Assembly: GCA_035544575.1 (NCBI GenBank)
Contig: DATKEC010000115.1
Location: forward strand, 22,835 to 86,834
Length of the DNA stretch: 64,000 bases
Direction of reading: 5' to 3'
Origin: Acidimicrobiia bacterium
Lineage (GTDB): Bacteria; Actinomycetota; Acidimicrobiia; Spongiisociales; ZC4RG35
In this document: positions 1 to 57,748 of the stretch, piece by piece
Layout of the letters: every line of letters starts with the position of its first letter
How positions within the stretch are numbered: position 1 is the stretch's first letter
Notes under the pieces: generated by a model
Told to the model about the DNA's origin: nothing
What the model saw: only the letters and a program-made list of their open reading frames with translations
The model's database searches: none
Position numbers and translations under genes: made by a program

Positions 1-675
1 CGCCACGATTTCGTCCGGCTCCCGGTTGACTGCCGGCGCCAAAGATCTGAGCCTCGCCGCGACCGACGTCGCGACATTCACGTCACCGAAGCGATACGGC
101 TCGGCTGCGATCACGCTCAGCGCCTGGTCGGCGGTCTCAGCCGCCCCGAGGACGAGGTCGGCACCAGCCTGCACGAAGCAGGAGCCCGCCACCGCACCTG
201 CCACGGCGGCAGCCGCCACGGCGGTCGCCGCGTCGAGGTGGGTCACGCGGGAGGCGTTGACTGCCGACGACACGAGCGCCGCCGGATCCCGTCGGTGGAA
301 GACCCCGATCGGCACACTGCGTGCGGCCGGCTCCGAAGACGCCAGCGACGACACGGTCGGGTTCGCCCGCAATGCCGACTTCAACCACTCGTTGAAGGCG
401 GCCGAGCATCCGCGGTAGGTGAATCGGCCTTCCTCGCCGCCGGCCAGTTCCAACAGACGTCGGGCATAGACATCGCGTTCGACGGTGTCGTGAAGGAGCA
501 GGTGATACGCCAGGACGATGGAAGCCTGGGTGATCGCCGAATACGACGTCGGCTCCGCCCCGCCGGCCACGTCCCCGGCCGCAGCCGCCAGCAGCGCGCC
601 GGCGCCACCGTCGACGGAGAGGGAGAACAATGGATCGTTGGGATCGGCCGCCACCGGCGACTTCTCGATCGTCAT
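1..675 (-). CDS. ADP-ribosylglycohydrolase family protein, N-terminal ~225 aa; gene runs off the left edge
   Basis: Manual minus-strand translation from the ATG (cat at 673-675) is stop-free to position 1: MTIEKSPVAADPNDPLFSLSVDGGAGALLAAAAGDVAG..AITQASIVLAY..AFNEWL..AARSVPIG..SRVTHLDAATAVAAAAVAG. The order of GxxLGxAxGDxxG, TQ, FxxW and TH motifs matches the DraG/ADP-ribosylglycohydrolase fold. It is absent from the ORF track because it is open at the edge. The overlapping track ORFs 26..418(+) and 137..685(-) are Ala- or Arg-rich low complexity. Confidence 0.5.
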   Translation of the reverse strand, partial: MTIEKSPVAADPNDPLFSLSVDGGAGALLAAAAGDVAGGAEPTSYSAITQASIVLAYHLLLHDTVERDVYARRLLELAGGEEGRFTYRGCSAAFNEWLKSALRANPTVSSLASSEPAARSVPIGVFHRRDPAALVSSAVNASRVTHLDAATAVAAAAVAGAVAGSCFVQAGADLVLGAAETADQALSVIAAEPYRFGDVNVATSVAARLRSLAPAVNREPDEIVA

Positions 676-756
676 GTGCAGACAACGTAGTGCCGACGCG
701 ACCGGATCAGCAGTCTTCTGACCGACACCAGCCGGACCGTTACTGTTCGGCGCCAC

Positions 757-1683
757 GTGACATCGGTCCTGCTCATCGCCAACCCGGCTGCCTCCCAGTT
801 CACCGGCGGACTCCACCGAACGGCGATGCGAGTTCTGGGTCGCGCCCACGATGTGCGAGCGATCTGGCCCCAGAGTGCCGAACACGCTCGGATCGCGGCC
901 CGAGACGCCGTGCGTTCCGGTACGGAACTGGTCATCGCGATGGGCGGGGACGGAATCGTCCACCACGTCGCACAAGGCCTGGTCGACACCGACGGGATCC
1001 TCGGGATCATCCCCTCGGGGACCACGAATGTCGTCGCCCGGCTGATGGGCATCCCGTCGAAACCGAAGGACGCCACCAACCTGCTGGCCGAGGATCATGA
1101 CACCATCGCCGCTCCCACCGTCGCGGTTTCGGCGACGGGACCCGACGGGGCGTGGTCGGCTCGGGCGATCTTCTCACTCGGAGTCGGCCCGGACGCACAG
1201 ATCGTGGCGGTTGCCGAGACCGAGCCGTACCGCAAGTATCGCTTCGGTTCCATCCATTACGCACGCACCGCGCTGGGTGTCGTCTGGCGCGATCTCCGCA
1301 AGCGAAAACCCGACCTGACGATCTCGACGCCGGCCGAGCGTCTGGGTATCGGAGCGATGGTCCAGTTCCACCAGGCATACACATACTTCGGTCGCATCCC
1401 GCTGCGACTCGATGCCATGGAGCCCGATCCGATGTCGGTGCTCACCATCGAAAAACTCCCCATCCGGCGGGCCGGCGCCATCGTCCGCAAAGCGGCCACG
1501 GGATCACTCGAAGACGTCAGAGGATTGACGGTCGACCGCCGGGTCAGCGAGTTGATCGTCACCGCAGGCTCTCCAACCGACGTCCAGATGGACGGCGAGC
1601 ACTACGGCCTCGTGTCGACGCTGACGGCTCGCGCCGTTCCCGCCAGTCTCCGTCTGGCCGTTCCTCCAGCTTCCGACGACTGA
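757..1683 (+). CDS. Diacylglycerol-kinase catalytic domain lipid kinase (YegS/BmrU-like)
   Basis: 308 aa; DAGK_cat motifs ..VIAMGGDGIVHHVAQGL..GIIPSGTTNVVAR.. Confidence 0.75.
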   Translation: MTSVLLIANPAASQFTGGLHRTAMRVLGRAHDVRAIWPQSAEHARIAARDAVRSGTELVIAMGGDGIVHHVAQGLVDTDGILGIIPSGTTNVVARLMGIPSKPKDATNLLAEDHDTIAAPTVAVSATGPDGAWSARAIFSLGVGPDAQIVAVAETEPYRKYRFGSIHYARTALGVVWRDLRKRKPDLTISTPAERLGIGAMVQFHQAYTYFGRIPLRLDAMEPDPMSVLTIEKLPIRRAGAIVRKAATGSLEDVRGLTVDRRVSELIVTAGSPTDVQMDGEHYGLVSTLTARAVPASLRLAVPPASDD

Positions 1684-1698
1684 TGGCCGCCAGCCCGG

Positions 1699-2523
1699 TC
1701 AGACGATGTCGCCGCGGTACACCGTCATGTGCGGGAACGGGATCTCGATTCCTTCTTCGTCGAGGCGATTCTTGATCCGGCGCAGCGCCTCGCGCTTGAC
1801 GAGCCAGCGATCCTCCGCCCCGACTTTGAGACTCGCCCGGATCGTGACGGCCGAGTCAGCCAGTGCGTCGACACCCAGCACCTGGGGATCCTCGAGGATG
1901 AGGCTCCCCCACTCCTCGGTCTCCTTCATGCCCACGAGAACCTGGGTGATGACCTCGATGACGCGATCGACCGATTCCTTGTAGGCCACGCCGATGTCGA
2001 GCACCACCAGGGCGAACTCCTGAGTCAGGTTGGTGGTGACGGTGATCTCGCCATGGGGCACGTAGTGGACGTTGCCATCCAGGTCCCGCAACACCGTGAT
2101 CCTCGGCCGGATGTCGACGACTGCCCCTGCCACGCCCGCCACCTTGACGACATCGCCGATGTGGTACTGATCCTCGGCGAGGATGAAGAATCCGCTGATG
2201 ACGTCCTTGACCAGGCTCTGAGCGCCGAAACCCACCGCCACCCCCACCGCCGAGCCGACCGCGACGAGAGGCGTCAGCGGCAGGCTCCACACTGCCGCGA
2301 TCATCAACACCAGAACGGCCACCAGGACCACGATCAGGAGACGTCGCGCCATCGACCACAGCGTGCGGGCTCGGGCACCGACCTCCGGGCCTCTGCCGTC
2401 CATGCGATCGATCGTCTTGTTGGCGACGCGAGCGGCGGCCAGCCACAGGACGACGATCCCCACAAACACGATCGTGGTCTGGACCACCGCGGTCACGTTG
2501 TCGCTGAAGAACGTCTCCATCAC
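1699..2523 (-). CDS. MscS-family mechanosensitive channel
   Basis: 274 aa; N-terminal TM helices then the MscS beta domain (..LAEDQYHIGDVVKVAGVAGAVVDIRPRITVLRDLDGNVHYVPHGEI..); converges on the lipid kinase with a 15-nt gap. Confidence 0.85.
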   Translation of the reverse strand: MMETFFSDNVTAVVQTTIVFVGIVVLWLAAARVANKTIDRMDGRGPEVGARARTLWSMARRLLIVVLVAVLVLMIAAVWSLPLTPLVAVGSAVGVAVGFGAQSLVKDVISGFFILAEDQYHIGDVVKVAGVAGAVVDIRPRITVLRDLDGNVHYVPHGEITVTTNLTQEFALVVLDIGVAYKESVDRVIEVITQVLVGMKETEEWGSLILEDPQVLGVDALADSAVTIRASLKVGAEDRWLVKREALRRIKNRLDEEGIEIPFPHMTVYRGDIV

Positions 2524-4034
2524 TGTCTCTCCTCGTAGCTCTGAACGGCCAGCATGAGTTCGGTGTGGGCGGCGCCGGGCGCAGATCGCGCCCGCAGCGT
2601 CGTCCTCAGCGGCCGCCCGACCCGGCGCTCCAGTTCGGCCGACACCAGTGTGGACGTGGCGTCGCGGCGGCCGGAGAGTGCGGCCTGCACGCGGGTGTTC
2701 GCCGAGCGACGCGCCACCGCGCGGATGCTGCCGATGACAGCGCCGGCGGCGGCGGCGAGTGCCACACCCACCGCCACTTCACCCTCCGAACGCCAGGAAT
2801 CGACCGTCATCGCCACACCGATCAGCATCGCCATCACCGCCGCATAGGACGGCATCCGAACCCGCCACCACCAAGCCGGCGCGGCGTCGAGCTCCGCGAC
2901 AGCGGTGGCGCCGATGGCGAGGGCTGCTGCTGCCACCTCGTCCTCCAGCTGGTTCTGGGTGACCGCCAGTTCGGTCCGCGTGGCGAGGTCGAGACCGCGG
3001 GCAGTTTCGTCGACCAGCCGACGGATCGGCTCGGCGGCCGAGGCGGGCACAGAAGCGCCTGCGGCAGTCACCGACGCCGCAAATCGCCTGGACCCGAACC
3101 ACGCCCCGATCTGGGCAGCGTCCCGGGACGCCACCAACTCGGCCGAGTTTGCCAGCTCCGCGTCCACTGCCTCCGCCACGGCAGCGGTGACCTCGTTCCT
3201 CGCCTCGATCCACCGCTCGGTGAATCCGGTTCCGCCCGGTCCACCCACCGGGCCGACGAGACGGTCCGCCGAGGCCACCAGCTGGTCGACGATTCGACGC
3301 GACACCACCGATTCGGTCGATCCCAGACGGCGGATCGCCGCCACGACCTCCTCGACACCGACAACCAGCCCGCTGGGCGGATCCCCGGCACTCAGGACGA
3401 TCTCCGGCTCGTCGATCCCGTCGGCAACGAGGGATCGGCGCAGGTCGGCACGGAGGGCACCTTGATCGCCCGGTGCCACCCGGTCGATCTGGTTCAGAGC
3501 GAAGATGAAACGATCGGCGTGGTCCGCCAGCGGTCGGAGGTGGTCCCGATGCAGGCGCGCATCCTGGTACTTCTCGGGATCGAGCACCCAGACAACGGCA
3601 TCCACCAGGGGGAGGATGCGGTCGACGGTCTGGCGGTGGTCCGTCACGACCGAATCGGTGTCGGGAAGATCGATGACCGCGAGCCAGGGATGGTCATCAT
3701 GGGCGACCCGGCAGGTCACACCGATGTCGTCGAGGAGCCGGGTGACGCCAGGCTCCGGATTGGCAGGGATCCAGGCGACTGGCTCAGAGGTGGTCGGGCG
3801 GCGGGCTCCGGGGGGCGAAACCTCTTCCCCCGCCAGTGCATTGAGGAGCGAGGACTTGCCCGAGCCGGTTCCACCCGCCAACGCCACCACGATGGTTTCA
3901 CCCAGGTACCCGGCGCGACGTCGGGCGGCCCTGCCCACTTCTGCCGATTCTTCGAGAATGTCGGTTTCGACCACGCCGACGCACGACGCCACCAGCCGAT
4001 CGTGGAGGTCCAGAAGCTCGCGCAGGTCAGGCAC
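2520..4034 (-). CDS. Dynamin-like GTPase (DLP), downstream member of a pair
   Basis: P-loop GGTGSGKSS, G2 RPTT, G3 DLPDTD, G4-like NQID, then a long helical region with a hydrophobic segment (AAVMAMLIGVAMTV). The likely GTG start at 4034 overlaps the upstream stop (GTGCCTGA), which supports this start over the in-track ATG at 4127. The 4-nt overlap of the Ser-rich stop with the MscS gene suggests an operon. Confidence 0.6.
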   Translation of the reverse strand: MPDLRELLDLHDRLVASCVGVVETDILEESAEVGRAARRRAGYLGETIVVALAGGTGSGKSSLLNALAGEEVSPPGARRPTTSEPVAWIPANPEPGVTRLLDDIGVTCRVAHDDHPWLAVIDLPDTDSVVTDHRQTVDRILPLVDAVVWVLDPEKYQDARLHRDHLRPLADHADRFIFALNQIDRVAPGDQGALRADLRRSLVADGIDEPEIVLSAGDPPSGLVVGVEEVVAAIRRLGSTESVVSRRIVDQLVASADRLVGPVGGPGGTGFTERWIEARNEVTAAVAEAVDAELANSAELVASRDAAQIGAWFGSRRFAASVTAAGASVPASAAEPIRRLVDETARGLDLATRTELAVTQNQLEDEVAAAALAIGATAVAELDAAPAWWWRVRMPSYAAVMAMLIGVAMTVDSWRSEGEVAVGVALAAAAGAVIGSIRAVARRSANTRVQAALSGRRDATSTLVSAELERRVGRPLRTTLRARSAPGAAHTELMLAVQSYEERQ

Positions 4035-5700
4035 CGGCGTATTCCTCCAGTGCGGTCGCGACGTCGTCGCACGCGTCGCGCAGCCGACGGGCGTCGTCGA
4101 GGTCGTCGAGGGCAGCTGCCAGCACACGCCGATGATGGTCGGTGGCGGCGACGACAGCCGCTGTCAGGCGTTCGGACAGCAGCGATCGGGCAGAGCGCGC
4201 CAGACGGTTGGCGGCGGCCGAGCCGAAGAGCCGCTCGAGCAGCGTCTGCTGGGCAGCCGCGGCACCGGCCGCCACGCCCATCTCCGCGCCCGTCAAGCCC
4301 CCGGTGGCCGCGAAGACTCCGAGCAGCACCAGGGTGGCTGTGGCGTTGATTCCGACGGCGGCGACGCGGGTGAGTCGATACCGGCCGCGCCCCGCCTCTG
4401 CGACGAGGGCCACGACCTCCGCCCGCCACGAGTCGATCGATTCCCTGAGGTCCGCTCGGATCCCGCTCCACTCGGGGGCTATCTCTTCGAGTAGGGCGGA
4501 TCCGGACCGTGACAACGACCAGGCGAGGTCGATCGACGTGCATGCCTGCTGCGCTCGGCGCAGACCCAGCTCGACCAACTCCTCCGCCACCTCCAGATCG
4601 ACCCGGGCCACGCGGTCCTCTGAGATCGAGCGCCGGGAGAACACCGCGTCGGTCAGCTTGCCCCAGCTCCGTTCGACCAGAGAAGCCAGGTCCGACACGC
4701 CCACCAGCCGCTGCCATCGCTGCACGACCTCCTGTCGCACGAGCTCGCCGCTTTCGAGCCGAAAGTCGATCTCGGCCCGCTGGGCGGCGACCGCTTCGTC
4801 GATGACCGACTCGAGACTCGCTCCCTCGGCCGCTTGGTCCTCGACGGCGGTCGCCAGTTCGCGTCCGACCGCGACGGCGTGTCGTACCGAGGACGCCACC
4901 CCCCGTGCGGAGACCGACGTGTGGTCCGCCGCGATCGTTTCGAGTCGGCGAGCCAGCCGGCGAAGGGCATAGCCGTGCAGCCGGCCGTCACCGCGCACGC
5001 GTTGCTCCTGGATCACCACGATGTCGTCGGCGGAGTCGATTCCCCGAACGCGGGCATCGCGCAGCAGACCGGCGAGATCAACGACTGCGCCTGAGGCTCG
5101 ACGGGTCGCACGGTTCATGACCACCATCACATCGAGCGAGCGTTCCGTGAGGTCACCCAGTACGTCCCAGGGCACGGCATCGGCGTACCGCTGGGGGGTC
5201 GTCACGGCGATCGCCACATCCGCGGCTTCGAGGATGGCCGTCGTCTGGGCACGGTGGTCCTCGGCGATCGAATCGATGTCGGGGGTGTCGACGATCGCGA
5301 TCGAAGAGAGAACAGGATGGTCGTCGGCGACCACCTCGACCGGTCCGGATGCCGCCAGCATCTCCTCGACGATGTCTGCGGAGCGGTGGTGCACCCAGAC
5401 GACGGCGCGTCGAGTGGTCGGACGCAGCACACCGGCTTCCGAGATCGGTCGGCCCACCAACGTGTTGACGAGCGTCGACTTGCCGCTGCCGGTTGGTCCG
5501 AACACGGCCACGACGACGGGGTGGGCCGGCTCGGCCAGCCGCGGTTCGAGATAGCGACGCAGGATCCCCATGAGATGAGCCTGACGCGCCAGGCGACCCG
5601 ACTGCGGTTCGGAGGGCAGCCCGAAACCCACGGCTTCGGCCGCGTCGGCGAGTGTGTCGAGCTCGGCGCGGAGACGGGCCTGGGGAGCAATGGTGGACAT
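4027..5700 (-). CDS. Dynamin-like GTPase (DLP), upstream member of a pair
   Basis: 557 aa; P-loop FGPTGSGKST, RPTT, IVDTPDID, NRAT, then a long alpha-helical stalk and a C-terminal hydrophobic paddle (VGINATATLVLLGVFAATGGL); the architecture resembles IniA/IniC- or DynA-type bacterial DLPs. Confidence 0.6.
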   Translation of the reverse strand: MSTIAPQARLRAELDTLADAAEAVGFGLPSEPQSGRLARQAHLMGILRRYLEPRLAEPAHPVVVAVFGPTGSGKSTLVNTLVGRPISEAGVLRPTTRRAVVWVHHRSADIVEEMLAASGPVEVVADDHPVLSSIAIVDTPDIDSIAEDHRAQTTAILEAADVAIAVTTPQRYADAVPWDVLGDLTERSLDVMVVMNRATRRASGAVVDLAGLLRDARVRGIDSADDIVVIQEQRVRGDGRLHGYALRRLARRLETIAADHTSVSARGVASSVRHAVAVGRELATAVEDQAAEGASLESVIDEAVAAQRAEIDFRLESGELVRQEVVQRWQRLVGVSDLASLVERSWGKLTDAVFSRRSISEDRVARVDLEVAEELVELGLRRAQQACTSIDLAWSLSRSGSALLEEIAPEWSGIRADLRESIDSWRAEVVALVAEAGRGRYRLTRVAAVGINATATLVLLGVFAATGGLTGAEMGVAAGAAAAQQTLLERLFGSAAANRLARSARSLLSERLTAAVVAATDHHRRVLAAALDDLDDARRLRDACDDVATALEEYAGA

Positions 5701-5712
5701 CCGTACCCGATT

Positions 5713-5786
5713 GTGACACGAGCCCGGTTCGGCCGATTCGGGCGCGGTGGGGATTCGATCGCGTTGTGCGGCGAATTCGTGTCACA
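5713..5786. promoter_or_regulatory. 9-nt inverted repeat (TGTGACACG .. CGTGTCACA) in the divergent promoter region between the GTPase operon and the PD-(D/E)xK gene
   Basis: tgtgacacg at 5712-5720 and its exact reverse complement cgtgtcaca at 5778-5786, with a 57-nt spacer, inside the 107-nt intergenic region 5701-5807. Confidence 0.3.
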
Positions 5787-5807
5787 CCCCTCCGATACGT
5801 TGCGAGG

Positions 5808-7076
5808 ATGACCGCAGCAGAACTCACCCAGGATGCCGTGACCGCCGTCGTCGACATCGACGAGAGTCGCGTGATCATCGAATCCCTGGTATCCGACGAT
5901 CCGGCGGTAGTTGGCGCGCTGTCCCGGCTGGCCGCCGACAGCCGCCCGGAAGCAGTCCGGCGGATGCTCGGGATCGGAGCGCGTGCGATCGTCGAAACCG
6001 CGGTTGGGATCGATCTCGCCGCGATCGATCAACGTGTGCTGCAGGCCATCGAACAAGCAACCGGGAGTGCCGAAGCCCGGGTCCGCCAAATCGTCACGGA
6101 CGCCGAAGCGGTCATGCGAACCTCGCTCGATCCCGACACGCGCACGTCAGCCATGGCGCGGGCGATCGCCGAGTTCGAGGCGGTGAGCGCTTCCGTCGCC
6201 CGGTCGATCGACCCGGCCAGAGCCGACTCCCACGTCGCGTTCCTCCTCGGTTCGCTGACGGCCATGTTGGGTCCTGGAGGCGAACTCGAGGAACGCCTGA
6301 CCGCCGCACTCGACCCGGCGAACGAGGGCTCCGGGCTGGCAGCACTGCGACGCGATGTCGAGCGGCGATTCGGCGAGATGCGGGATCTCATCGCCGAACA
6401 GCGCGGCCGGCGCTCGGAGGCCGACGTCGGCACTCAGAAAGGCTTCGAGTTCGAAGACATCCTCGAGCGCCGCCTGCGCGAGCTCGCCCGCCCGATCGGC
6501 GCCGTCGTCACGCGGACTTCAGACGTCATCGGCTCGGTGGGAGGCTGCCTGGTCGGCGACTTCGTCGTCACGCTCCAGAACGGGTCAGCCATCGTCGTGG
6601 AGGCGAAGAACACCAGGTCCATTGGCCTCGGAGGCTCCGGGGGCATCCTCGCAGAACTCGACAGAGCCTTGTCGAATCGCCGCTCGGCGGTTGCCATCTG
6701 CGTTTCTGCATCCGCGGCGTTCCCCGCGGAGGTAGGAGCCTTCGGCGTCTACGGGAATCGCATCCTCGTCGTCGACGATGGCGAGGGTTCACTGCTCGAG
6801 GTAGCGCTCCGGTGGGCGACCCTGGCGGCGACTGCGTCGGAGCGAACCGGTGCAGATGTCGACGTGGCGAGGGTTCTCGAGGTGACGGATCGGGTTCGCC
6901 GGCTCGCCCAGTCCTTTTCGACTCATCGCCGGGCACTCACCGACAGCATCGAGTCGATCGGACGTGTCCGCGAAGGCCTCGACGACATGCGCCGCGATCT
7001 GCTGACTCAGATCGACGAGATCGATTTCGAGCTCGAAAGAGGGGCTGTCGACCTGAAGGTCGTGAACGGTCAGTGA
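5808..7076 (+). CDS. Hypothetical protein with a C-terminal Mrr-like restriction-endonuclease (PD-(D/E)xK) fold
   Basis: Start set at ATG 5808 (MTAAELTQ..) rather than the Arg-rich in-track start at 5652. The C-terminal region GTQKGFEFEDILERRL..GAVVTRTSDVIGSVGGCLVGDFVVTL..GSAIVVEAKNT carries the GxFE, D and ExK signature of Mrr_cat/NucS-type nucleases. The N-terminal ~260 aa are helical and of unknown function. Confidence 0.5.
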   Translation: MTAAELTQDAVTAVVDIDESRVIIESLVSDDPAVVGALSRLAADSRPEAVRRMLGIGARAIVETAVGIDLAAIDQRVLQAIEQATGSAEARVRQIVTDAEAVMRTSLDPDTRTSAMARAIAEFEAVSASVARSIDPARADSHVAFLLGSLTAMLGPGGELEERLTAALDPANEGSGLAALRRDVERRFGEMRDLIAEQRGRRSEADVGTQKGFEFEDILERRLRELARPIGAVVTRTSDVIGSVGGCLVGDFVVTLQNGSAIVVEAKNTRSIGLGGSGGILAELDRALSNRRSAVAICVSASAAFPAEVGAFGVYGNRILVVDDGEGSLLEVALRWATLAATASERTGADVDVARVLEVTDRVRRLAQSFSTHRRALTDSIESIGRVREGLDDMRRDLLTQIDEIDFELERGAVDLKVVNGQ

Positions 7077-7951
7077 ACCGCCGCCGCCATGGCTGGTCCG
7101 ATCTCGGGATGGGTGAAGCCAAAGCCAGTCTGGCTGAGAACCTCCGGCACCACGCGCTTTGATTCGAGCAGCAACGCGTTGGCGGCGCCGGCGCCCAACA
7201 CCGCCTCGAGGAGGAGCCTCGGCGTGGGAAACCACGACGGGCGTCCCATGGCCGCTCCGAGCGCCGTCATGAACTCGGAGTTGCGCACCGGGTTGGGCGA
7301 AGCGAGGTTCACCGGCCCCCGGATGCCGCCGGTGTCGAGGACATGGAGGATCGCCCGAATTTCGTCCTCAAGGCTGATCCAGCTCCACCACTGTCGTCCC
7401 CCGCCGATCCGGCCTCCGACGAAGAAGCGAAACGGCCACATCATCTTGGGGAGGGAGCCTCCGGAGGAATCGAGCACGAGCGAGCTCCTCAGGTGCGCCA
7501 CGCGTGCTCCGGCCGCCACCGCCGGAGCCGCCGCCGTCTCCCACGCCTGGGTCACCCGTGACATGAACCCGTCTCCGGGCGGTTCGGACTCAGTCAGGAG
7601 ATCCTCACCCCGATCCCCGTAGAAGTCCATGCCGGAGGCAGTCAGCAGCGTCGGTGTGGACGCCTTGGCGACGGCCCGGGCGATGAGGTCGGTGCCATCC
7701 ACTCGAGATCGCATGATTCGCGCTTTCTTGGCCTTCGTCCACGGTGGAAGAATGGATTCTCCCGCCAGGTGGACGACGGCGTCGACTCCATCGAGGGCGT
7801 CGTCGTCGATTCGTCCGGCGGCGATGTCCCAGCCCGGGTTCGGGTCGTGGCCGCCCCGCCGCAGCGGGACGGGGGTGTCGCCGCGGGCGGACAAGGCGTC
7901 GGACAATGCCGTTCCGATGAAGCCGGTCGCACCCGTGATCAGTACTCGCAT
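7070..7951 (-). CDS. TIGR01777-family epimerase (NAD-binding Rossmann domain plus DUF1731)
   Basis: MRVLITGATGFIGTAL.. in 293 aa; C-terminal ..FTHPEI.. region. Confidence 0.8.
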   Translation of the reverse strand: MRVLITGATGFIGTALSDALSARGDTPVPLRRGGHDPNPGWDIAAGRIDDDALDGVDAVVHLAGESILPPWTKAKKARIMRSRVDGTDLIARAVAKASTPTLLTASGMDFYGDRGEDLLTESEPPGDGFMSRVTQAWETAAAPAVAAGARVAHLRSSLVLDSSGGSLPKMMWPFRFFVGGRIGGGRQWWSWISLEDEIRAILHVLDTGGIRGPVNLASPNPVRNSEFMTALGAAMGRPSWFPTPRLLLEAVLGAGAANALLLESKRVVPEVLSQTGFGFTHPEIGPAMAAAVH

Positions 7952-8079
7952 GAGGGGTTCCTCTCTCTGACGAAAGACGCTATGTCCGGACCGGGTTGAG
8001 TGGTAATCCGCCTCGGAGTCGCCTAACGGGCTCCTACCCCTATCATCGGGTGCCGTCCCCGGGGTTCGCTTCTTTCACC

Positions 8080-9975
8080 ATGTCGTCGATGTCAACACGC
8101 GCCCGCGTCGCCCTGCTCACCGTCACCGCCCTGATCTTCGTGGTCCTGGCGTTGTTCGGCGCCGTGCGCCTGCTCCGCACCGGTGAGATCCTCGGGTCTG
8201 TGAGCGTGGCCGGACATGGTGTCGCCCTCGGTGGTCTGACGCCTGAGGAGGCCGACGAGGCTCTGGCCGTGTTGGAACAGGAATTGTCGATCGATCCTGT
8301 CGTCGTCGACATCGCCGGTGCGGAGGCGACAGTCCTTCCCCAACAACTCGGCTTCGCGCTGGACCGGCCCGCAATGGTCGAAGAAGCGATGCGGCGCGGT
8401 CGAGAGGGGGGCGTATCGGACCAGTTCCGATGGTGGCTTTCTCACCTGTTCGCCACCGACGAACTCGAGCCCAGCGGCTCGGTCGATGAAGCGTCGGTGG
8501 AGGCCGTCCTGACGTTCTGGGACGTCGATGTGGTGGGGAATCCGCCGGTGCCCGGTGGTGTCGTGATCGAGGGTACGACCCCTGTCGCCGTGTATCCCGA
8601 GACCGGACTCCAGGTGGATCGAAGTTCGGCCTCGGACCGCCTGCTGGCCGGAGCCCTCGGACCGCGGCCCGCGACCGTCACTCTCGACACGGCGCTCGCC
8701 AACTCGCGGGTCACACGCGCCGACGTCGATGCAGCCGTCGCCCGGGCTCAACTGTGGCTGTCCTCGCCGGTGCGGCTGTCCGCAGACGATGTGACGATCG
8801 AGTTCTCGGTTTCGGACATGGCGGCGGCGTTCACTTCGACGGTGGTCGAGGGCGTCGTCGAACTCGGGTTCGATCCGGTAGTGATCGCCGGCCTTCTCGA
8901 TGCCCGTCGCAGCGAGCTGGAAGCCCCGCCGGTCGACGCCCGGCTCGAAGTGGACGGGTACCAGGTCATCGTGGTGCCGGGCCGAAACGGAACACTCATC
9001 GACCCGGAGGCGACCGCCGAGGCGCTGGCCGCAGCCGCGTCGTCGGTTCGCCGCCAGGGCGAGCTCCCGTTCGTCGAGGGTGCCGAACCCGAAGTCACGA
9101 CGGCTGAACTCGAGGCGCTCGGAATCGAACACCTCCTTGCCGAGTTCACGACCTATCACCCGTGTTGTCAGAACCGCGTCACAAACATCCATCTGATGGC
9201 CGACATCGTGAACGGGGCAATCGTGGCCCCCGGGGCCATTTTCGGAGTCAACGCCTACGTCGGCCAGCGCACCACTGAGCGCGGCTTCCTGGAGGACGGA
9301 ACCATCATCCAGGGCGAGTTGGTCGAAACGGTCGGCGGCGGCGTGTCCCAATTCGCGACGACGATGTACAACGCTGTGTTCTGGAGCGGTCTCGAGGATG
9401 TGAGCCACCGCCCTCACAGCTTCTACTTCAGCCGCTACCCGGAGGGCATCGAGGCCACCATCTCGTGGCAGCAGCCGGAGCTCGAGTTCCGCAACGACAC
9501 CGATCACGCCATCTGGATTCGGACGGCCTACACAGACACCTCGATCACGGTTCGCATCTACGGATCGAACGACGGTCGCATCCTCGTCGGCGACCATGCC
9601 GGCGGCACGACCAATCTCGGGGTGGTGGCCGAGGGCGGGCCCAACGCCCGCCGCGTGCGCGGATCGATCGGTGACCGCTTCAACCCGACCGAACCGACCA
9701 CCGAACACAGGCCCAACCCCGAACTCGAGGTCGAGGAGACCAACCAGCTGCAGTCACCGGCGCCTGGGTGGACGGTGGTCGTGACCAGGGTGATCGAACA
9801 GAACGGCGCCGAGCGTATGGAGACCTGGACGGTTCGTTACCTGGCGAGACGCGAGATCCTCGAGGTCCACCCCTGCAAGATGCCGGGCGCCACCGTGGAG
9901 TGCCCTGAACCAACGACGACGACGCTGCCTCCTGAAACCACCACCACCCCACCACCCCCCGAAGACCAAGGCTGA
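8080..9975 (+). CDS. VanW-family protein with a Thr/Pro-rich C-terminal tail
   Basis: N-terminal TM helix (ALLTVTALIFVVLALFGAV) and the VanW core (..YHPCCQNRVTNIHLMADIVNGAIVAPGAIFGVNAYVG..); ATG at 8080 was chosen over the in-track start at 7996. Confidence 0.8.
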   Translation: MSSMSTRARVALLTVTALIFVVLALFGAVRLLRTGEILGSVSVAGHGVALGGLTPEEADEALAVLEQELSIDPVVVDIAGAEATVLPQQLGFALDRPAMVEEAMRRGREGGVSDQFRWWLSHLFATDELEPSGSVDEASVEAVLTFWDVDVVGNPPVPGGVVIEGTTPVAVYPETGLQVDRSSASDRLLAGALGPRPATVTLDTALANSRVTRADVDAAVARAQLWLSSPVRLSADDVTIEFSVSDMAAAFTSTVVEGVVELGFDPVVIAGLLDARRSELEAPPVDARLEVDGYQVIVVPGRNGTLIDPEATAEALAAAASSVRRQGELPFVEGAEPEVTTAELEALGIEHLLAEFTTYHPCCQNRVTNIHLMADIVNGAIVAPGAIFGVNAYVGQRTTERGFLEDGTIIQGELVETVGGGVSQFATTMYNAVFWSGLEDVSHRPHSFYFSRYPEGIEATISWQQPELEFRNDTDHAIWIRTAYTDTSITVRIYGSNDGRILVGDHAGGTTNLGVVAEGGPNARRVRGSIGDRFNPTEPTTEHRPNPELEVEETNQLQSPAPGWTVVVTRVIEQNGAERMETWTVRYLARREILEVHPCKMPGATVECPEPTTTTLPPETTTTPPPPEDQG

Positions 9976-10000
9976 CCGCCGCAAATCGAAACCCTGGGTT

Positions 10001-53515: not shown

Positions 53516-54844
53516 ATGCGGAGACGACTACTGACATTTGGCGGCCTGACCGCCACGGCCCTCTTCGGTCCGTTGGCGGGCACCGCGCTGGCCCAGAGCG
53601 TGGAAGAGGTGGCGGTGGCACTCGACAACGTCTGGGTTGTCGTCGCCGGCATCCTCGTCATGTTCATGCAACCCGGCTTCGCACTCGTCGAAGCGGGCTT
53701 CACGCGTGCCAAGAACACGGCGAACATCGTCATGAAGAACTTCATGGACTTTGCCGCAGGCGCCCTCATGTATTGGGCCGTCGGCTTCGGCCTCGCATAC
53801 GGCGGATCCACGATCGGCGGATACATCGGGTATGGCGAGTTCTTCTTCAACAATCCGGCGCGTTCGGTCGAATGGTTCTTCCAGGTGGTCTTCGCAGCGA
53901 CCGCGGCGACGATCGTCTCGGGAGCCATGGCAGAGCGGACGAAGTTCTCCGCCTATCTGATCTACACACCGTTCATCACCGGGTTCATCTATCCCATCGT
54001 CACCCACTGGACGTGGGGTGGCGGCTGGCTCGCCGAGCTCGGGTACTACGACTTCGCCGGTTCGGGGATCGTCCACATGGTGGGCGGCGTCGCCGCCCTC
54101 GCCGGGGTCCTCGTGCTCGGGCCGCGCATCGGCAAGTACGACGAGAACGGCAACCCGCTGCCGATCCCCGGCCATTCGCTGATGCTCGGCGCGCTCGGTG
54201 TGTTCATCCTCTGGTTCGGTTGGTATGGCTTCAACGCTGGATCCACCCTGGCGGCAGTCGGAGCGGACTTCGCCACCGTGGCCGTCACGACGACGCTGGC
54301 GGCAGCGGCGGGGGCGATCGGAGCGATGACCACCGCATGGGCGAATCGTTCCTTCGGCCGGCCCGACCCGGGAATGACACTCAACGGCGCCCTCGGAGGA
54401 CTCGTGGGAATCACCGCTGCGCCCGACATCATTCCCACGCACTTCGCGGTGCTGGTGGGACTCGTGGCAGGCTTCGTCGTCGTCCAGGGGATGCTGGCCA
54501 TCGAGAAGGCAGGCATCGACGATCCGGTCGGGGCGATCACAGTGCATGGGCTGTGCGGCATCTGGGGTGTGCTCGCTGTGGGGATCTTCGGGGCCGATGT
54601 CGGGTTCCTCAACGGGGGTGGGTTCAGCCAGATCGGCTACCAGATCATCGGCATCCTGGCGATCGGTGGCTGGGCATTCGTCACCTCGACGATCGTGTTC
54701 CGGGGTCTCGATGCGGTGATGGGGCTTCGAGTCTCCGCAGAAGAAGAACTCGCCGGCCTGGACAGGGTGGAACACGGCGCCGCCGCCTATCCGGAGTTCA
54801 TGGAACAGATCGCCGACCCCCGCCAGCTGGATCCGATCTCCTGA
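53516..54844 (+). CDS. amt: Ammonium transporter (Amt family)
   Basis: Signal peptide; ..VMFMQPGFALVEAGF..; GGAG RBS; about 11 TM helices; no glnK downstream. Confidence 0.9.
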   Translation: MRRRLLTFGGLTATALFGPLAGTALAQSVEEVAVALDNVWVVVAGILVMFMQPGFALVEAGFTRAKNTANIVMKNFMDFAAGALMYWAVGFGLAYGGSTIGGYIGYGEFFFNNPARSVEWFFQVVFAATAATIVSGAMAERTKFSAYLIYTPFITGFIYPIVTHWTWGGGWLAELGYYDFAGSGIVHMVGGVAALAGVLVLGPRIGKYDENGNPLPIPGHSLMLGALGVFILWFGWYGFNAGSTLAAVGADFATVAVTTTLAAAAGAIGAMTTAWANRSFGRPDPGMTLNGALGGLVGITAAPDIIPTHFAVLVGLVAGFVVVQGMLAIEKAGIDDPVGAITVHGLCGIWGVLAVGIFGADVGFLNGGGFSQIGYQIIGILAIGGWAFVTSTIVFRGLDAVMGLRVSAEEELAGLDRVEHGAAAYPEFMEQIADPRQLDPIS

Positions 54845-54914
54845 GCAGGTCCCTTCGCCGGCGGTCGGCGACGATTGCGTTGGGTGGGTCTCCACACGGA
54901 GGCTCACCCGACGT

Positions 54915-54938
54915 GGCTGAGTCGTCTCGAACTCAGCC
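54915..54938. terminator. Candidate hairpin in the convergent gap after amt
   Basis: GGCTGAGT-cgtctcga-ACTCAGCC, an 8-bp stem with no U-tract. Confidence 0.2.
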
Positions 54939-55445
54939 CACGGGCCGGCGGGACGCCACGTCGTAGATCCGCAACGATCCGCCGTCGGACACGATGAGAT
55001 TGGCCGGGTTGATCCACATCCGATCTCCCAGCTTCTCGAGCGCTTCATCGAGCCGGCGGCGGTCGACCACCTCGGGACATTGGACCGTGACAAGTCCGGC
55101 CCGGTCGACATCGTGAAGGACACGGTCGTCCTCGACCCATTTGACCGCCTCGGTGACCGCCATCCCTACGGCGAGCACATCGTGGGCGGAATCGACGAAC
55201 TCCTCGACCATGTCGTCGATGAGTGCCACCAGCGCCCCGTCGGGCACCGGTTCGTCGAAGAACACCACCGTGCTGATGTGGGGGGCGAGATCCCGCATTC
55301 GCCGCCGGAGCGTTGGGACGTGCACGTTGACCGACGGTCCGGTGCCATGGTCACCCACAACAGCGAAGGCTTCCACCCTCCCATCACCCGCAACGAGATG
55401 GAGTTGGCGCGCCGAGAACGGGCGGAGCATATGAAGGCCGGACAT
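54933..55445 (-). CDS. Hypothetical protein
   Basis: 170 aa from the ATG at 55445 (the track uses a TTG at 55475); GC3-rich, coding-like composition; divergent from ispD. Confidence 0.35.
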   Translation of the reverse strand: MSGLHMLRPFSARQLHLVAGDGRVEAFAVVGDHGTGPSVNVHVPTLRRRMRDLAPHISTVVFFDEPVPDGALVALIDDMVEEFVDSAHDVLAVGMAVTEAVKWVEDDRVLHDVDRAGLVTVQCPEVVDRRRLDEALEKLGDRMWINPANLIVSDGGSLRIYDVASRRPVG

Positions 55446-55500: not shown

Positions 55501-56217
55501 ATGGCCACCGTCGCGATCGTTCTCGCCGGGGGAAGCGGGTCCCGCGTACAACGCGACGTGAACAAGGTGTTCTTGCCGTTGGGGGATCGCGAGATGCTCG
55601 CTTACTCCCTCGACACGATGGATCGTTCACCACTCATCGACGAGGTCATCCTCGTGGTGCGCGACGAGGACCGCCCCCTCGCCGAGCGGCTCATCTCCGA
55701 AGCGGGCTGGGCCAAGCTCGTCGCCGTCGTCACCGGCGGTGAGAGTCGCCATCAGTCCGAGTGGCACGCGATCGCATCGGTGGCCGATGGCATCGACGGA
55801 GGGCGGGTCGACATCGTCGTGATCCACGATGGTGCCCGACCGTTCATGACCGCTGAGATCCTGGCCGCCACCATCGAGGCGGCGCGGCGCAGCGGCGGCG
55901 GTGTCCCCGGTCTCCCGATCGAAGGCCCCATCTACGAACGGAGGGGCGAATCCGTGTTGGTCGCACCCCACGCCAAGCTTCGGCGGATGCAGACCCCGCA
56001 GGCATTCCAGGCCGCGCCTCTTCTCGCGGCACATCGCGCCGCCGAGGCCGAGAACAGCGAAGGAGTCGACACGGCCGCGACAGCCTCCCGCCACTCCGAG
56101 ATGTCGGTCGAGGTCGTCCCCGGCGATCCCCGCAACATCAAGGTCACGTTCGTCGAGGACATCTTCCGGGCCGAGGAATACGCGGCGAGCTTCAACCGGG
56201 GGGCGTGGGCGGGCTGA
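55501..56217 (+). CDS. ispD: 2-C-methyl-D-erythritol 4-phosphate cytidylyltransferase
   Basis: ..AIVLAGGSGSRV..NKVFLPLGD.. and ..VVIHDGARPF.. Confidence 0.88.
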   Translation: MATVAIVLAGGSGSRVQRDVNKVFLPLGDREMLAYSLDTMDRSPLIDEVILVVRDEDRPLAERLISEAGWAKLVAVVTGGESRHQSEWHAIASVADGIDGGRVDIVVIHDGARPFMTAEILAATIEAARRSGGGVPGLPIEGPIYERRGESVLVAPHAKLRRMQTPQAFQAAPLLAAHRAAEAENSEGVDTAATASRHSEMSVEVVPGDPRNIKVTFVEDIFRAEEYAASFNRGAWAG

Positions 56218-56263
56218 GACCTTCGGCGGCAGGAGCGCAGGGGCTTTCCGCGCCTGCGAGGCG

Positions 56264-56350
56264 GTGCCCGGGGTGGGATTTGAACCCACACGTCCTCTCG
56301 GACAGGGGGGTTTAAGCCCCCAGCGTCTGCCAGTTTCGCCACCCGGGCCG
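56264..56350 (-). tRNA. tRNA-Leu (anticodon UAA)
   Basis: GCCCGGG acceptor stem, anticodon stem GGGGG/CCCCC with loop CUUAAAC, long variable arm, T-loop GTGGGTTCAAATCCCAC, discriminator A; CCA is not encoded. Confidence 0.85.
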
Positions 56351-56372
56351 GGCAGGACTCCGAGTATCACAG

Positions 56373-57233
56373 TCAGAGACCGGCGACGACGCCATCCAAC
56401 AGGTCCCGCTCGCTGACCGTCACCGTGACCGCGTCGAGACGCCGCATCGTCTCGCGGGCAATGACTGCCCCGGCGAGGATCACCGGAGCACGCGCCGGGT
56501 CGAGCCCGGGAAGCGCTGCCGTCTCCTCGACCGTCAGACCGGCCAGGCGGACCACGAGCCGGTCGATGACCACACGGTCCAGCTTCTCGTCGTGGACCGA
56601 CCCGCTGCGTTCGCGGGCGATCCCAGCCAACGACGTCCATGTACCTGCCACACCGATGACCGAAACTCCGCCGGGGAGTTCCACCTCCTGGAACAGACCC
56701 TCCACGTGCTCGATGGCCGTTTCGACGGCTTCGTAGGACACGGGTCGCACCGGAAGCAGGCGATCGGTCAGCCGCACCGAGCCGATGTCGATCGAAACCG
56801 CCTGGATGCGGTCGGTCCGATACACGAACTCGGTACTGCCGCCGCCGATGTCGACGACGATGAGATCCCCCTCCCGGCCACGGGCGGCTCCCGCGAATGC
56901 GAGTTCTGCCTCCTCGATCCCGGAGATCATCTGCGGACGCACTCCCAACACGTCCTCGCTCCGGTCGAGGAATTCTTCGCGGTTCGAGGCGTCGCGGGTG
57001 GCCGAGGTCGCCACCGCCCGCCGGCGCTCCGCCCCGTGTCGCTCGCACAATCGGCGGAACTCGTCGAAGACGTCGAGCGTCCGGCAAATAGCGTCCTCGT
57101 CGAGCCGCCGGTTGGCGTCCACCCCGCGCCCGAGGCCGGTCACTCGGGCGACACGCACCAGGTCCTCGCCTGTATCGTCCACGACGAGCAATCGCATCGA
57201 ATTGGTGCCGATGTCGATCGCCGCCCGCGCCAT
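56373..57233 (-). CDS. ppx: Ppx/GppA-family exopolyphosphatase
   Basis: MARAAIDIGTNSMRLLV.. and ..VVDIGGGSTEFV.. Confidence 0.85.
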   Translation of the reverse strand: MARAAIDIGTNSMRLLVVDDTGEDLVRVARVTGLGRGVDANRRLDEDAICRTLDVFDEFRRLCERHGAERRRAVATSATRDASNREEFLDRSEDVLGVRPQMISGIEEAELAFAGAARGREGDLIVVDIGGGSTEFVYRTDRIQAVSIDIGSVRLTDRLLPVRPVSYEAVETAIEHVEGLFQEVELPGGVSVIGVAGTWTSLAGIARERSGSVHDEKLDRVVIDRLVVRLAGLTVEETAALPGLDPARAPVILAGAVIARETMRRLDAVTVTVSERDLLDGVVAGL

Positions 57234-57242
57234 ACGACGAAC

Positions 57243-57748
57243 CTACCGGGGTTCCCGCCACGCCGGGTTGGCGGCTCCGGCGACCACACAAGGGATGGTG
57301 CAGTTCAGCGGCTCGACCCACGGCGCCACCATCCGTCCCACCGGGTTGTCGTTGGCGGCGGCGTGATCGGCGTAATGGGCGTGCAAACACTTGATCCCTG
57401 TGCGCGCCCCGCCGACTCCCCCGCTCGGAACCGGGGACGCCCCAGGCGGCACCACGGCGTCGCGATCCGCGGCGTATCGCCGATGCGCGGCTTCGAGTTC
57501 GAGCGCGAAGTCGGAATCTGCCTCTGCGTGACGCTCCATCGCCCTCACTCCCCCACTGGCCTCCAGACGTCCGATGCGGATCGACGCCAGCGGACAGCTC
57601 AGCCAGAAGCGGGTCGGGAAGGGCGTCCCGTCATCGAGAATCGGGGGGACCGCCGCCACGACCGGCAGGCCGAGCGGACATCGAGCGACGACCGCGGACT
57701 CGGCACGAAGTGGACGGCGGATCTGGGCTTCCAGATCGGCGCGGTCGG

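What the first reader, a model, noticed from the sequence alone, without database searches (positions are those of the whole stretch)
2520..7076. Translationally coupled dynamin-like GTPase pair divergently paired with an Mrr-like PD-(D/E)xK nuclease-fold protein
Two large GTPases (557 aa and about 505 aa) are joined by a GTGCCTGA start/stop overlap. Both have P-loop, RPTT and DxPD motifs followed by a long helical stalk and a hydrophobic paddle, the architecture of bacterial dynamin-like proteins (IniA/IniC or DynA type). They share a 107-nt promoter region with a divergent 422-aa protein. Its C-terminus has a clear GxFE..GDFVV..VVEAKN (Mrr_cat-like D/ExK) signature and its N-terminal half is uncharacterised. 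Pairing a membrane-remodelling GTPase pair with a nuclease-fold protein is not a described operon type and is suggestive of a stress or defence module. The co-regulation is inferred only from the divergent arrangement.
Basis: partly seen in the sequence, partly recalled or inferred. Interest (0 to 1): 0.55.

Follow-up and report, generated by a model that had tools for sequence, protein, structure and literature searches.

The report
Dynamin-like pair beside unrelated nuclease gene
Two coupled dynamin-like membrane GTPases and a neighbouring nuclease-fold protein are all real, but they look like two separately controlled neighbours in a conserved housekeeping stretch of an Acidimicrobiia chromosome, not a joint stress or defence machine.

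Summary
Two dynamin-family GTPases, 557 aa (4027-5700, minus strand) and 504 aa (2520-4034, minus strand), overlap by GTGCCTGA. A mechanosensitive-channel gene is coupled to them too. A divergent 422-aa protein (5808-7076) has a genuine PD-(D/E)xK nuclease core with invariant E216, D251, E265 and K267. It is a divergent full-length relative of DUF2130, not Mrr_cat.

The "stress/defence module" reading is only partly supported. Every locus that carries the nuclease gene has the GTPase pair directly next to it: 61 of 61 genome loci, in two orientations. The reverse fails. Of 58 informative metagenome loci with the GTPase pair, 36 lack the nuclease, and 9 of those lie in the same syntenic block. 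The surroundings are housekeeping genes (gatB, gatA, ligA, pyk), and the nuclease matches no defence-system model.

The two units have different promoters. The GTPase operon has an extended -10. The nuclease gene has a very strongly conserved TGTCAC-N10-TAnnnT element 6-7 nt before its ATG. Its geometry matches the mycobacterial PafBC "-26 element" DNA-damage promoters. This hints that the nuclease is a separately induced, leaderless stress gene.

Distant relatives of the nuclease sit in mobile or defence-like contexts without dynamins. Interest is moderate to low.

The parts
4027..5700 (-). GTP1: first dynamin-like GTPase, 557 aa. It has a G domain, a helical stalk and a Gly/Ala-rich hydrophobic hairpin ('paddle') at about residues 440-492.
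   Evidence: Translation. Pfam Dynamin_N 44.1 bits against a cutoff of 27. AF2 pLDDT 84.9. Foldseek top hits BDLP 2j68 (E 5e-9) and IniA 6j72. Identical public protein named 'dynamin family protein'.
2520..4034 (-). GTP2: second dynamin-like GTPase, 504 aa, GTG start, with a C-terminal hydrophobic hairpin (WWWRVRMPSYAAVMAMLIGVAM...).
   Evidence: Translation. Pfam Dynamin_N 36.4 bits. Gene call with the same 8-nt overlap.
4027..4034 (-). GTGCCTGA start/stop overlap that couples translation of GTP1 and GTP2.
   Evidence: Sequence read. GTP1 and GTP2 abut within a few nt in related loci.
1699..2523 (-). MscS-type mechanosensitive channel gene. Its start (GTG 2523 or ATG 2520) overlaps the GTP2 stop codon, making it the third gene of the operon.
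   Evidence: Sequence. Pfam MS_channel_2nd, MS_channel_3rd and MS_channel_1st. The same position after GTP2 is seen in L001, L002, L062, L076 and others.
5710..5718 (-). Putative extended -10 promoter of the GTPase operon (TGTCACAAT on the minus strand), 9 nt before the GTP1 ATG. The mRNA would be leaderless or nearly so.
   Evidence: The TGn + (G/C)A(C/G)AAT element 8-10 nt before the ATG recurs in the GTP1 upstream regions, including loci that lack the nuclease gene. ACAATC is the most frequent 6-mer (48 of 103 regions). Function is inferred.
5780..5801 (+). Conserved promoter of the nuclease gene: TGTCAC ('-26 element'), N10, then TACGTT (-10). It lies 6 nt before ATG 5808, so the mRNA would be leaderless.
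   Evidence: Present in 64 of 65 genome loci and 86 of 92 upstream regions. TGTCACA is the commonest 7-mer de novo. In 1.58 Mb the full pattern precedes only this gene (78 cases) and one small ORF (6 cases). The geometry equals the PafBC motif tGTCgg(N10)tA(N3)T (PMC8635444). Function is inferred.
5808..7076 (+). 422-aa DUF2130-superfamily protein. It has an N-terminal beta-hairpin and helical region (1-205), a PD-(D/E)xK nuclease core (about 212-343; E216, D251, E265, K267) and a C-terminal long helix (353-412).
   Evidence: DUF2130 link. Called as a 422-aa gene in an independent assembly.
7070..7951 (-). NAD-dependent epimerase/DUF1731 gene, convergent with the nuclease gene and overlapping its end by 7 nt. 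It is a neighbour, not part of the unit.
   Evidence: Pfam Epimerase + DUF1731. ORF coordinates and sequence.

Best explanation
The region contains two independent transcription units. They are neighbours because they belong to a vertically inherited syntenic block of Acidimicrobiia chromosomes: DAGK - MscS - DLP - DLP - nuclease - epimerase - VanW - pyruvate kinase.

Unit 1 is a three-gene operon, GTP1-GTP2-MscS. It is read from an extended -10 promoter as a leaderless or near-leaderless mRNA, and overlapping stop and start codons enforce equal production. By analogy with BDLP, IniA/IniC, Cj-DLP1/2 and DynA/DynB, the two dynamin-like GTPases would form a hetero-oligomer. That oligomer would insert its hydrophobic hairpins into the cytoplasmic membrane and use GTP to tether, fuse or sever membrane. 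The coupling to a mechanosensitive channel points to membrane-integrity or osmotic-stress maintenance. This step is inferred.

Unit 2 is a monocistronic, leaderless gene for a soluble, probably coiled-coil-dimerised, Mg-dependent PD-(D/E)xK nuclease of the DUF2130 superfamily. Its promoter has no -35 hexamer. Instead it has a near-invariant TGTCAC element at -28 to -23, the architecture of activator-dependent 'sigma adaptation' promoters such as those bound by PafBC. The nuclease is therefore most likely switched on by a dedicated stress signal, DNA damage being the best guess, and acts on DNA. This step is also inferred.

Nothing requires the nuclease and the GTPases to work together.
For: - Gene identities.
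- Operon coupling.
- Housekeeping context: gatB, gatA, ligA, mnmA, pepA, pyk.
- Block synteny in 71 genome loci.
- Separate promoters. The nuclease promoter is conserved in 86 of 92 upstream regions and is unique to this gene plus one small ORF in 1.58 Mb. The GTPase promoter is conserved even where the nuclease gene is absent.
- In five genome loci (L036, L038, L039, L053, L066) the two units are convergent. Each keeps its own upstream region, and the nuclease keeps its motif.
- The GTPase pair occurs without the nuclease in 36 of 58 informative loci. These include syntenic loci where the epimerase or a RecB-like gene abuts GTP1.
- Distant full-length relatives of the nuclease (hhalign probability 100%) lie in mobile or defence-like and DNA-enzyme contexts with no dynamin nearby.
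- The PafBC motif and its -26 geometry come from PMC8635444.
- Acidimicrobiales possess a pupylation locus, the locus that encodes PafBC in mycobacteria (PMC3511204; PMC5656591 abstract).
Against: - The nuclease gene is never found away from the GTPase pair: 61 of 61 genome loci and 22 metagenome loci.
- No gene is ever inserted between them, although other junctions of the block vary by 0-3 genes. This is more than the block's average conservation.
- In compact spacers the nuclease's TGTCAC element lies only about 20 nt upstream of the TG of the GTPase promoter's extended -10, so one regulator could affect both.
- The DNA-damage reading of the promoter is untested. The second gene with this promoter is a small Cys-rich ORF followed by an MFS transporter gene, not a repair gene.
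- Bases 5-6 of the element are AC, not the mycobacterial gg.
- No recA or uvr promoter from these organisms could be examined.
Confidence: 0.55

Rival explanations
1. The nuclease is a dedicated partner of the dynamin-like pair, forming a membrane-DNA module. The DLPs would recruit or activate the nuclease at the membrane, for example at the septum, at sites of membrane damage or at incoming DNA. Lineages without the nuclease would have lost an accessory subunit.
For: - Strict one-way adjacency in 61 of 61 genome loci and 22 metagenome loci, in both divergent and convergent arrangements, with no insertion between the genes.
- In compact spacers the two promoters are close together back to back.
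Against: - The DLP pair is complete, similarly conserved and similarly promoted in many loci without the nuclease.
- The promoters are of different classes.
- The orientation is not fixed.
- The whole block is syntenic, so adjacency is expected without function.
- Other members of the nuclease superfamily never sit next to dynamins.
- The nuclease has no membrane segment.
Confidence: 0.2
2. The three genes form an anti-phage or anti-plasmid defence system, an Eleos/Leo-like dynamin system with a nuclease effector.
For: - Weak PADLOC hits of both GTPases to LeoA and LeoBC (E 4e-7 to 2e-4), confined to short N-terminal stretches around the P-loop.
- B. subtilis DynA contributes to phage defence (PMC12998192).
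- Distant relatives of the nuclease lie near methyltransferases, Bil genes, helicases and ATPases on mobile elements and haloarchaeal megaplasmids.
Against: - The gene order is fixed within a conserved housekeeping block across 71 species-level genomes.
- GC content in the region is even.
- No mobile-element genes were seen nearby.
- The nuclease matches no PADLOC or PHROGs model.
- The Leo matches cover only short N-terminal stretches.
- The GTPases commonly occur without the nuclease.
Confidence: 0.05
3. The 422-aa protein is not an active nuclease. It would be a coiled-coil scaffold or DNA-binding protein that retains the fold.
For: About two thirds of the protein is helical or coiled-coil. 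No biochemical data exist for any DUF2130 member: PMC3424549 lists the function as unknown.
Against: All four catalytic-motif residues (E216, D251, E265, K267) are invariant in the close family. G-x-FE, GD and (E)AK are invariant or nearly so in relatives at about 25% identity. This is the pattern expected for a working active site.
Confidence: 0.1

Closest known systems
Paired bacterial dynamin-like proteins (Nostoc BDLP, Mycobacterium IniA/IniC, Campylobacter DLP1/DLP2, Streptomyces DynA/DynB)
   Same: - The G domain is recognised by Pfam Dynamin_N.
- The helical stalk and hydrophobic membrane hairpin are present, and the best structural matches are BDLP and IniA.
- The two paralogues sit in one operon, the commonest arrangement for bacterial DLPs (PMC6104087 abstract).
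   Different: - No detectable sequence similarity to any solved DLP (phmmer against the PDB, E up to 1).
- The G3 motif is an invariant DTPD, whereas the canonical form is DxxG (the canonical form is from my own knowledge).
- The operon continues into an MscS channel gene.
- TM-scores are low (0.2-0.37) because the domain arrangement differs.
DUF2130 (Pfam PF09903 / COG4487), a PD-(D/E)xK family of unknown function
   Same: - Full-length architecture of a helical/coiled-coil region plus a PD-(D/E)xK core with G-x-FE, GD and ExK.
- 17 of 42 orthologues give weak PF09903 hits.
- Distant full-length relatives pass the Pfam threshold (P0345 43.8 bits, P0287 33.3 bits). They align with this family at hhalign probability 100% over 392 columns.
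- The family is listed as PD-(D/E)xK with unknown function in PMC3424549.
   Different: - The window protein itself gives no PF09903 hit at E up to 1.
- The orthogroup is chromosomal, syntenic and restricted to Acidimicrobiia-type genomes.
- It carries a special conserved promoter that the distant relatives lack.
PafBC-dependent (RecA-NDp, '-26 element') promoters of mycobacteria
   Same: - A GTC triplet sits 12 nt upstream of a TAnnnT -10 element, with no -35 hexamer and a very short or absent leader.
- The mycobacterial consensus is tGTCgg(N10)tA(N3)T (PMC8635444). Here the consensus is TGTCAC(N10)TA(N3)T.
   Different: - Bases 5-6 are AC rather than gg.
- The regulator was not identified here.
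- The only other gene seen with this promoter is a small Cys-rich ORF upstream of an MFS transporter gene.
- No DNA-repair gene of these organisms could be examined.
McrBC and Eleos (LeoA/LeoBC): GTPase-containing defence systems
   Different: - McrB is an AAA+ GTPase co-transcribed with McrC (my own knowledge). Here the GTPases are dynamin-family membrane proteins, transcribed separately from the nuclease.
- The Leo hits cover only short N-terminal stretches around the P-loop.
- The context is housekeeping and vertically inherited.

Membership tests
Bacterial dynamin-like proteins (Pfam Dynamin_N, PF00350) | The G domain scores above the Pfam gathering threshold. | tested here: met
   GTP1 44.1 bits and GTP2 36.4 bits against a cutoff of 27. 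Homologues carry precomputed PF00350.
Bacterial dynamin-like proteins (Pfam Dynamin_N, PF00350) | Canonical G motifs: P-loop GxxxxGKS/T, switch-I Thr, and G3 DxxG. | tested here: inconclusive
   The P-loop and RPTT are present and invariant. G3 is an invariant D138-T139-P140-D141 in GTP1 and DLPD in GTP2, so Asp replaces the usual Gly.
Bacterial dynamin-like proteins (Pfam Dynamin_N, PF00350) | A helical neck/trunk (stalk) follows the G domain, with an overall DLP fold. | tested here: met
   AF2 model with pLDDT 84.9 and pTM 0.79. Foldseek probability 1.0 to BDLP, IniA, MxA, Drp1, Mfn1/2 and Cj-DLP1/2. Tested for GTP1 only.
Bacterial dynamin-like proteins (Pfam Dynamin_N, PF00350) | A membrane-binding paddle or hydrophobic hairpin. 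| tested here: met
   GTP1 has a helix-loop-helix at about 440-492 with invariant Gly/Ala residues. GTP2 has the hydrophobic stretch WWWRV...AAAGAVIGSI. Membrane binding itself was not tested.
Bacterial dynamin-like proteins (Pfam Dynamin_N, PF00350) | GTP-dependent membrane remodelling. | not testable with these tools
   Requires biochemistry.
PD-(D/E)xK nuclease superfamily | An alpha-beta-beta-beta-alpha-beta core fold. | tested here: met
PD-(D/E)xK nuclease superfamily | Catalytic E ... (P)D ... (D/E)xK residues on helix 1, strand 2 and strand 3. | tested here: met
   E216, D251, E265 and K267 are invariant in 42 homologues. They are also conserved in relatives at about 25% identity.
PD-(D/E)xK nuclease superfamily | Metal-dependent phosphodiesterase activity. 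| not testable with these tools
   Requires enzyme assays.
DUF2130 (PF09903) | A match to the family HMM above the gathering score of 26.7 bits. | tested here: not met
   The window protein gives no hit at E up to 1. 17 of 42 orthologues give sub-threshold hits, best E 5.8e-4. Membership holds only at superfamily level, through P0345 and P0287 and hhalign probability 100%.
PafBC-type (-26 element) promoter | A GTC triplet at about -26, 12 nt upstream of a TAnnnT -10, with no -35 hexamer. | tested here: met
   TGTCAC-N10-TAnnnT in 64 of 65 loci and 86 of 92 upstream regions. Information content is about 2 bits at G, T, C and at the T, A, T positions of the -10. Consensus taken from PMC8635444.
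PafBC-type (-26 element) promoter | A PafBC (WYL-domain) activator is present, and the same motif precedes recA/uvr genes in the same organism. | not tested
   No recA or uvr loci and no pafBC from these genomes were within reach. The only related fact is that Acidimicrobiales have a pupylation locus (PMC3511204).
PafBC-type (-26 element) promoter | Induction by DNA damage. | not testable with these tools
   Requires transcriptomics.
Eleos / Leo dynamin defence system | Full-length matches to LeoA and LeoBC, and a location in variable defence islands. | tested here: not met
   PADLOC hits cover only short N-terminal stretches: residues 63-163 and 60-84 of GTP1, and 40-70 and 47-83 of GTP2. The block is housekeeping and syntenic.

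The most novel reading that the evidence does not exclude
The strict adjacency is functional. A DUF2130-type nuclease, switched on through a PafBC-like '-26 element' promoter, would work together with a membrane-bound dynamin-like pair. This would link DNA processing (damage, segregation or incoming DNA) to membrane remodelling in Acidimicrobiia. It would also give the DUF2130 superfamily its first functional assignment and extend sigma-adaptation promoters to a deep actinobacterial class.
Probability: 0.15. Interest if true: 0.65.

Novelty: new member of a known kind. Interest (0 to 1): 0.35.

Why it matters
If the ordinary reading is right, the finding still adds three things:
- a distinct, sequence-divergent subfamily of paired bacterial dynamins coupled to an MscS channel;
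- a well-defined orthogroup of the uncharacterised DUF2130 nuclease superfamily;
- for that nuclease, a strongly conserved activator-type promoter that gives a concrete, testable handle on when the enzyme is made.

That promoter suggests PafBC-like sigma-adaptation control may exist outside the Actinomycetes. It offers a first experimental route into DUF2130 function. The analysis also shows that a divergent arrangement alone was a poor guide to co-regulation here.

Tried and rejected
- Sequence searches of all three proteins against PDB chains gave no useful relatives.
- NCBIfam gave only generic P-loop hits.
- PHROGs gave nothing for the nuclease or six relatives.
- PADLOC gave nothing consistent for the nuclease or its distant relatives.
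- Rfam found no RNA family in 1-10000.
- The consensus promoter scan found only one site, inside the nuclease coding region (5851-5878), and did not report either promoter proposed here.
- The 10-nt inverted repeat 5712-5721 / 5777-5786 looked at first like a shared operator. The alignments show it is the chance juxtaposition of the GTPase extended -10 (TGTCACAAT) and the nuclease -26 element. The left arm changes to TGCGACAAT or TGGGACAAT in other loci.
- I looked for other genes with the TGTCAC promoter in the 64-kb window and 1.58 Mb of loci to test the DNA-damage-regulon idea. Only a small Cys-rich ORF turned up.
- Motif searches for RecA, UvrA, UvrB and DnaE2 in the held DNA found none.
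- Look-ups of two window ORFs to extend the context failed, probably because of start-codon differences.
- The afdb50 fold library was unavailable.
- No phage homologues were found.
- I rejected the idea that the RecB-like nuclease in L136 replaces the DUF2130-like gene. It is a regular block member in 68 loci, most of which also have the DUF2130-like gene.

Full report
**What is there.** The window is high-GC DNA (64-69% GC, evenly distributed). Its proteins match Acidimicrobiia metagenome-assembled genomes.

On the minus strand, ORF 4027-5700 encodes a 557-aa protein. It is 100% identical to a public protein that NCBI names "dynamin family protein" (P0121). The next gene starts at GTG 4034 and ends at 2520, giving 504 aa. 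Its start and the upstream stop form GTGCCTGA at 4034-4027. An independent assembly calls the same 8-nt overlap.

A third gene, an MscS-type mechanosensitive channel (1699-2523), begins at a GTG or ATG that overlaps the stop codon of the second GTPase. The operon therefore has three genes.

On the plus strand, after a 107-nt spacer (5701-5807), lies the 422-aa gene 5808-7076. The independent assembly also calls it at that length.

**The GTPases are dynamin-like.** Both pass Pfam Dynamin_N above its gathering score (44.1 and 36.4 bits against 27). An AlphaFold model of the first (pLDDT 84.9, pTM 0.79) has a G domain, long stalk helices and a helix-loop-helix at about 440-492. That hairpin is made of invariant Gly/Ala residues.

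Foldseek places the model with BDLP, IniA, MxA, Drp1, mitofusins, Cj-DLP1/2, SynDLP and LeoA at probability 1.0. At sequence level no solved dynamin is detected, so this is a divergent subfamily. One oddity is that the G3 motif is an invariant DTPD rather than DxxG. Paired DLP genes in one operon are the commonest bacterial arrangement (PMC6104087).

**The 422-aa protein is a PD-(D/E)xK protein of the DUF2130 superfamily.** By itself it gives no Pfam, NCBIfam, PADLOC or PHROGs hit. In an alignment of 42 homologues, E216, D251, E265 and K267 are invariant.

Seventeen of 42 orthologues hit DUF2130 weakly, and nine hit PDDEXK_15. A profile search of 1.84 billion representatives finds 2206 relatives, 1423 of them at E up to 1e-10. 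Distant members share the whole architecture (hhalign probability 100% over 392 columns). Two of them pass the DUF2130 threshold. DUF2130 is a recognised PD-(D/E)xK family of unknown function (PMC3424549). "Mrr_cat-like" is therefore only a fold-level description.

**Is the pairing conserved?** Starting from the nuclease, a scan of one genome per species found 71 loci, nearly all labelled Acidimicrobiia or unclassified bacteria. Wherever the contig extends far enough (61 loci), the GTPase pair is the direct neighbour. It is divergent in 56 loci and convergent in 5, and no gene is ever inserted between them.

The whole block is syntenic in the same loci: DAGK, often MscS, DLP, DLP, nuclease, often epimerase, often a RecB-like PDDEXK_1 gene, VanW and pyruvate kinase. 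Adjacency alone is therefore weak evidence of shared function.

The reciprocal test used the GTPase as the starting point in metagenome contigs. Of the 80 loci:
- 22 have the nuclease next door;
- 36 have at least 1.4 kb of upstream DNA and lack it;
- 22 are too short to judge.

Nine of the 36 are in the same syntenic block. In L102 and L150, for example, the epimerase gene abuts GTP1 exactly where the nuclease gene would be. The GTPase pair therefore does not need the nuclease.

**Distant relatives of the nuclease.** They are found among small unannotated ORFs and genes for DNA methyltransferases, DUF87/TrwB ATPases, Bil proteins and PLD-family proteins. On haloarchaeal megaplasmids they lie beside helicases, AAA ATPases, and VWA and MBL-fold proteins. 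None has a dynamin neighbour. This supports a nucleic-acid function for the superfamily and a mobile-element history. It does not support a general dynamin-nuclease partnership.

**Regulation.** The spacer contains two different promoters.

Immediately upstream of the nuclease ATG is TGTCACAC-N8-TACGTT, followed by 6 nt and then the ATG (5780-5801). The same structure, TGTCAC-N10-TAnnnT followed by 6-7 nt and the ATG, is present in 64 of 65 genome loci and 86 of 92 upstream regions. It persists at protein identities down to about 38%.

TGTCACA is the most frequent 7-mer when no motif is assumed. In 1.58 Mb of held DNA, the full pattern in front of an ORF occurs 84 times. Seventy-eight of these are this gene. 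Six are a 44-63-aa Cys-rich ORF upstream of an MFS transporter gene in six loci. The mobile-element paralogues lack the motif.

The geometry is a GTC triplet at about -26, 12 nt before a TAnnnT -10, with no -35 hexamer. [quoted passage not shown] Acidimicrobiales have a pupylation locus (PMC3511204), and that locus encodes PafBC in mycobacteria (PMC5656591). I could not reach any recA or uvr promoter or any pafBC gene of these organisms. The DNA-damage reading therefore remains an inference.

The GTPase operon instead has TGn + (G/C)A(C/G)AAT 8-10 nt before its ATG. This looks like an extended -10, leaderless-type promoter, and it is conserved whether or not the nuclease gene is present. In the convergent clade the two units share no spacer, and the nuclease keeps its motif. 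The 10-nt inverted repeat in the window's spacer is simply these two elements facing each other.

**Context.** The rest of the window encodes GatB, GatA-type amidase, NAD-dependent DNA ligase, MnmA, leucyl aminopeptidase, pyruvate kinase, AceK, a DEAD-box helicase and similar functions. No mobile-element or defence genes were seen. No Rfam family is present in 1-10000.

**Conclusion.** The proposed dynamin-nuclease stress/defence module is not established. The best-supported picture is two independently promoted units that are neighbours within a conserved chromosomal block:
- a DLP-DLP-MscS membrane-maintenance operon;
- a separately controlled, probably stress-induced, DUF2130-type nuclease.

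The never-broken adjacency seen from the nuclease's side keeps a functional link alive at roughly one chance in five. Defence is unlikely. The most interesting by-product is the near-invariant -26-type promoter, which offers a testable entry into the function of the DUF2130 superfamily.

Noticed in passing
window 5780-5801 (+); the same element in L001-L070 and L078-L156: A near-invariant promoter, TGTCAC-N10-TAnnnT followed by 6-7 nt and the ATG, precedes the DUF2130-like nuclease gene. It matches the geometry of mycobacterial PafBC '-26 element' promoters and implies a leaderless mRNA.
   Followed up: partly
L011 2025-2213(-), L034 3363-3515(-), L041 3276-3431(-), L047 ~2516-2677(-), L050 3133-3285(-), L070 2275-2406(-): A second copy of the same promoter drives a 44-63-aa Cys-rich ORF (C-x4-C-x2-C, always ending in Ala-Ala). 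The ORF lies upstream of an MFS/ATG22-like transporter gene and divergent from the DAGK gene. It is absent from the window and has no Pfam match.
   Followed up: partly
window 2518-2523: The MscS mechanosensitive-channel gene start (GTG 2523 or ATG 2520) overlaps the stop codon of the second GTPase. The dynamin-like pair is therefore translationally coupled to a channel gene, and the same order is seen in several related loci.
   Followed up: partly
GTP1 residues 138-141 (window about 5278-5289, minus strand) and GTP2 DLPD: The G3 (switch II) motif is an invariant DTPD/DLPD, whereas dynamins usually have DxxG. The normally conserved glycine is replaced by aspartate across the subfamily.
   Followed up: no
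L136 4950-5738(+), L110 2577-3368(+), and 66 other loci next to VanW: A 262-aa Cas4/RecB-like PDDEXK_1 nuclease with a C-terminal Cys cluster is a regular member of the same syntenic block in 68 loci. Many genomes therefore carry two different nuclease-fold genes side by side. It is absent from the window's subclade.
   Followed up: partly
L005 about 3040-3150 and L006 about 7800-7960 (spacer between GTP1 and the nuclease gene): Heptamer tandem repeats, (GACGAGC)n and (CTGGCTG)n / (CAGCTAC)n, have expanded inside the divergent spacer in two related genomes. Neither promoter element is disturbed.
   Followed up: no
L158 (Haloferax lucentense pSVX82-3) and L159 (Halobaculum litoreum plasmid): Full-length homologues of the nuclease (25-29% identity) occur on haloarchaeal megaplasmids. 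Their neighbours include DEAD/DEAH, SNF2 and UvrD helicases, AAA ATPases, and VWA and MBL-fold proteins, which look like uncharacterised DNA-targeting gene clusters.
   Followed up: no
window 7070-7076: The nuclease gene and the convergent epimerase/DUF1731 gene overlap by 7 nt at their 3' ends.
   Followed up: no
window 53528-55123(-) and 55627-57390(-): Two large ORFs (531 and 587 aa) have no Pfam match at E up to 1e-5. I did not check whether they are real genes.
   Followed up: no
L118-L153 (74-78% GC metagenome contigs): A more distant clade of the same GTPase pair (about 32% identity) occurs in very high-GC organisms, with none of the block's neighbouring genes and no nuclease. The pair is therefore much more widespread than the Acidimicrobiia block.
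   Followed up: no
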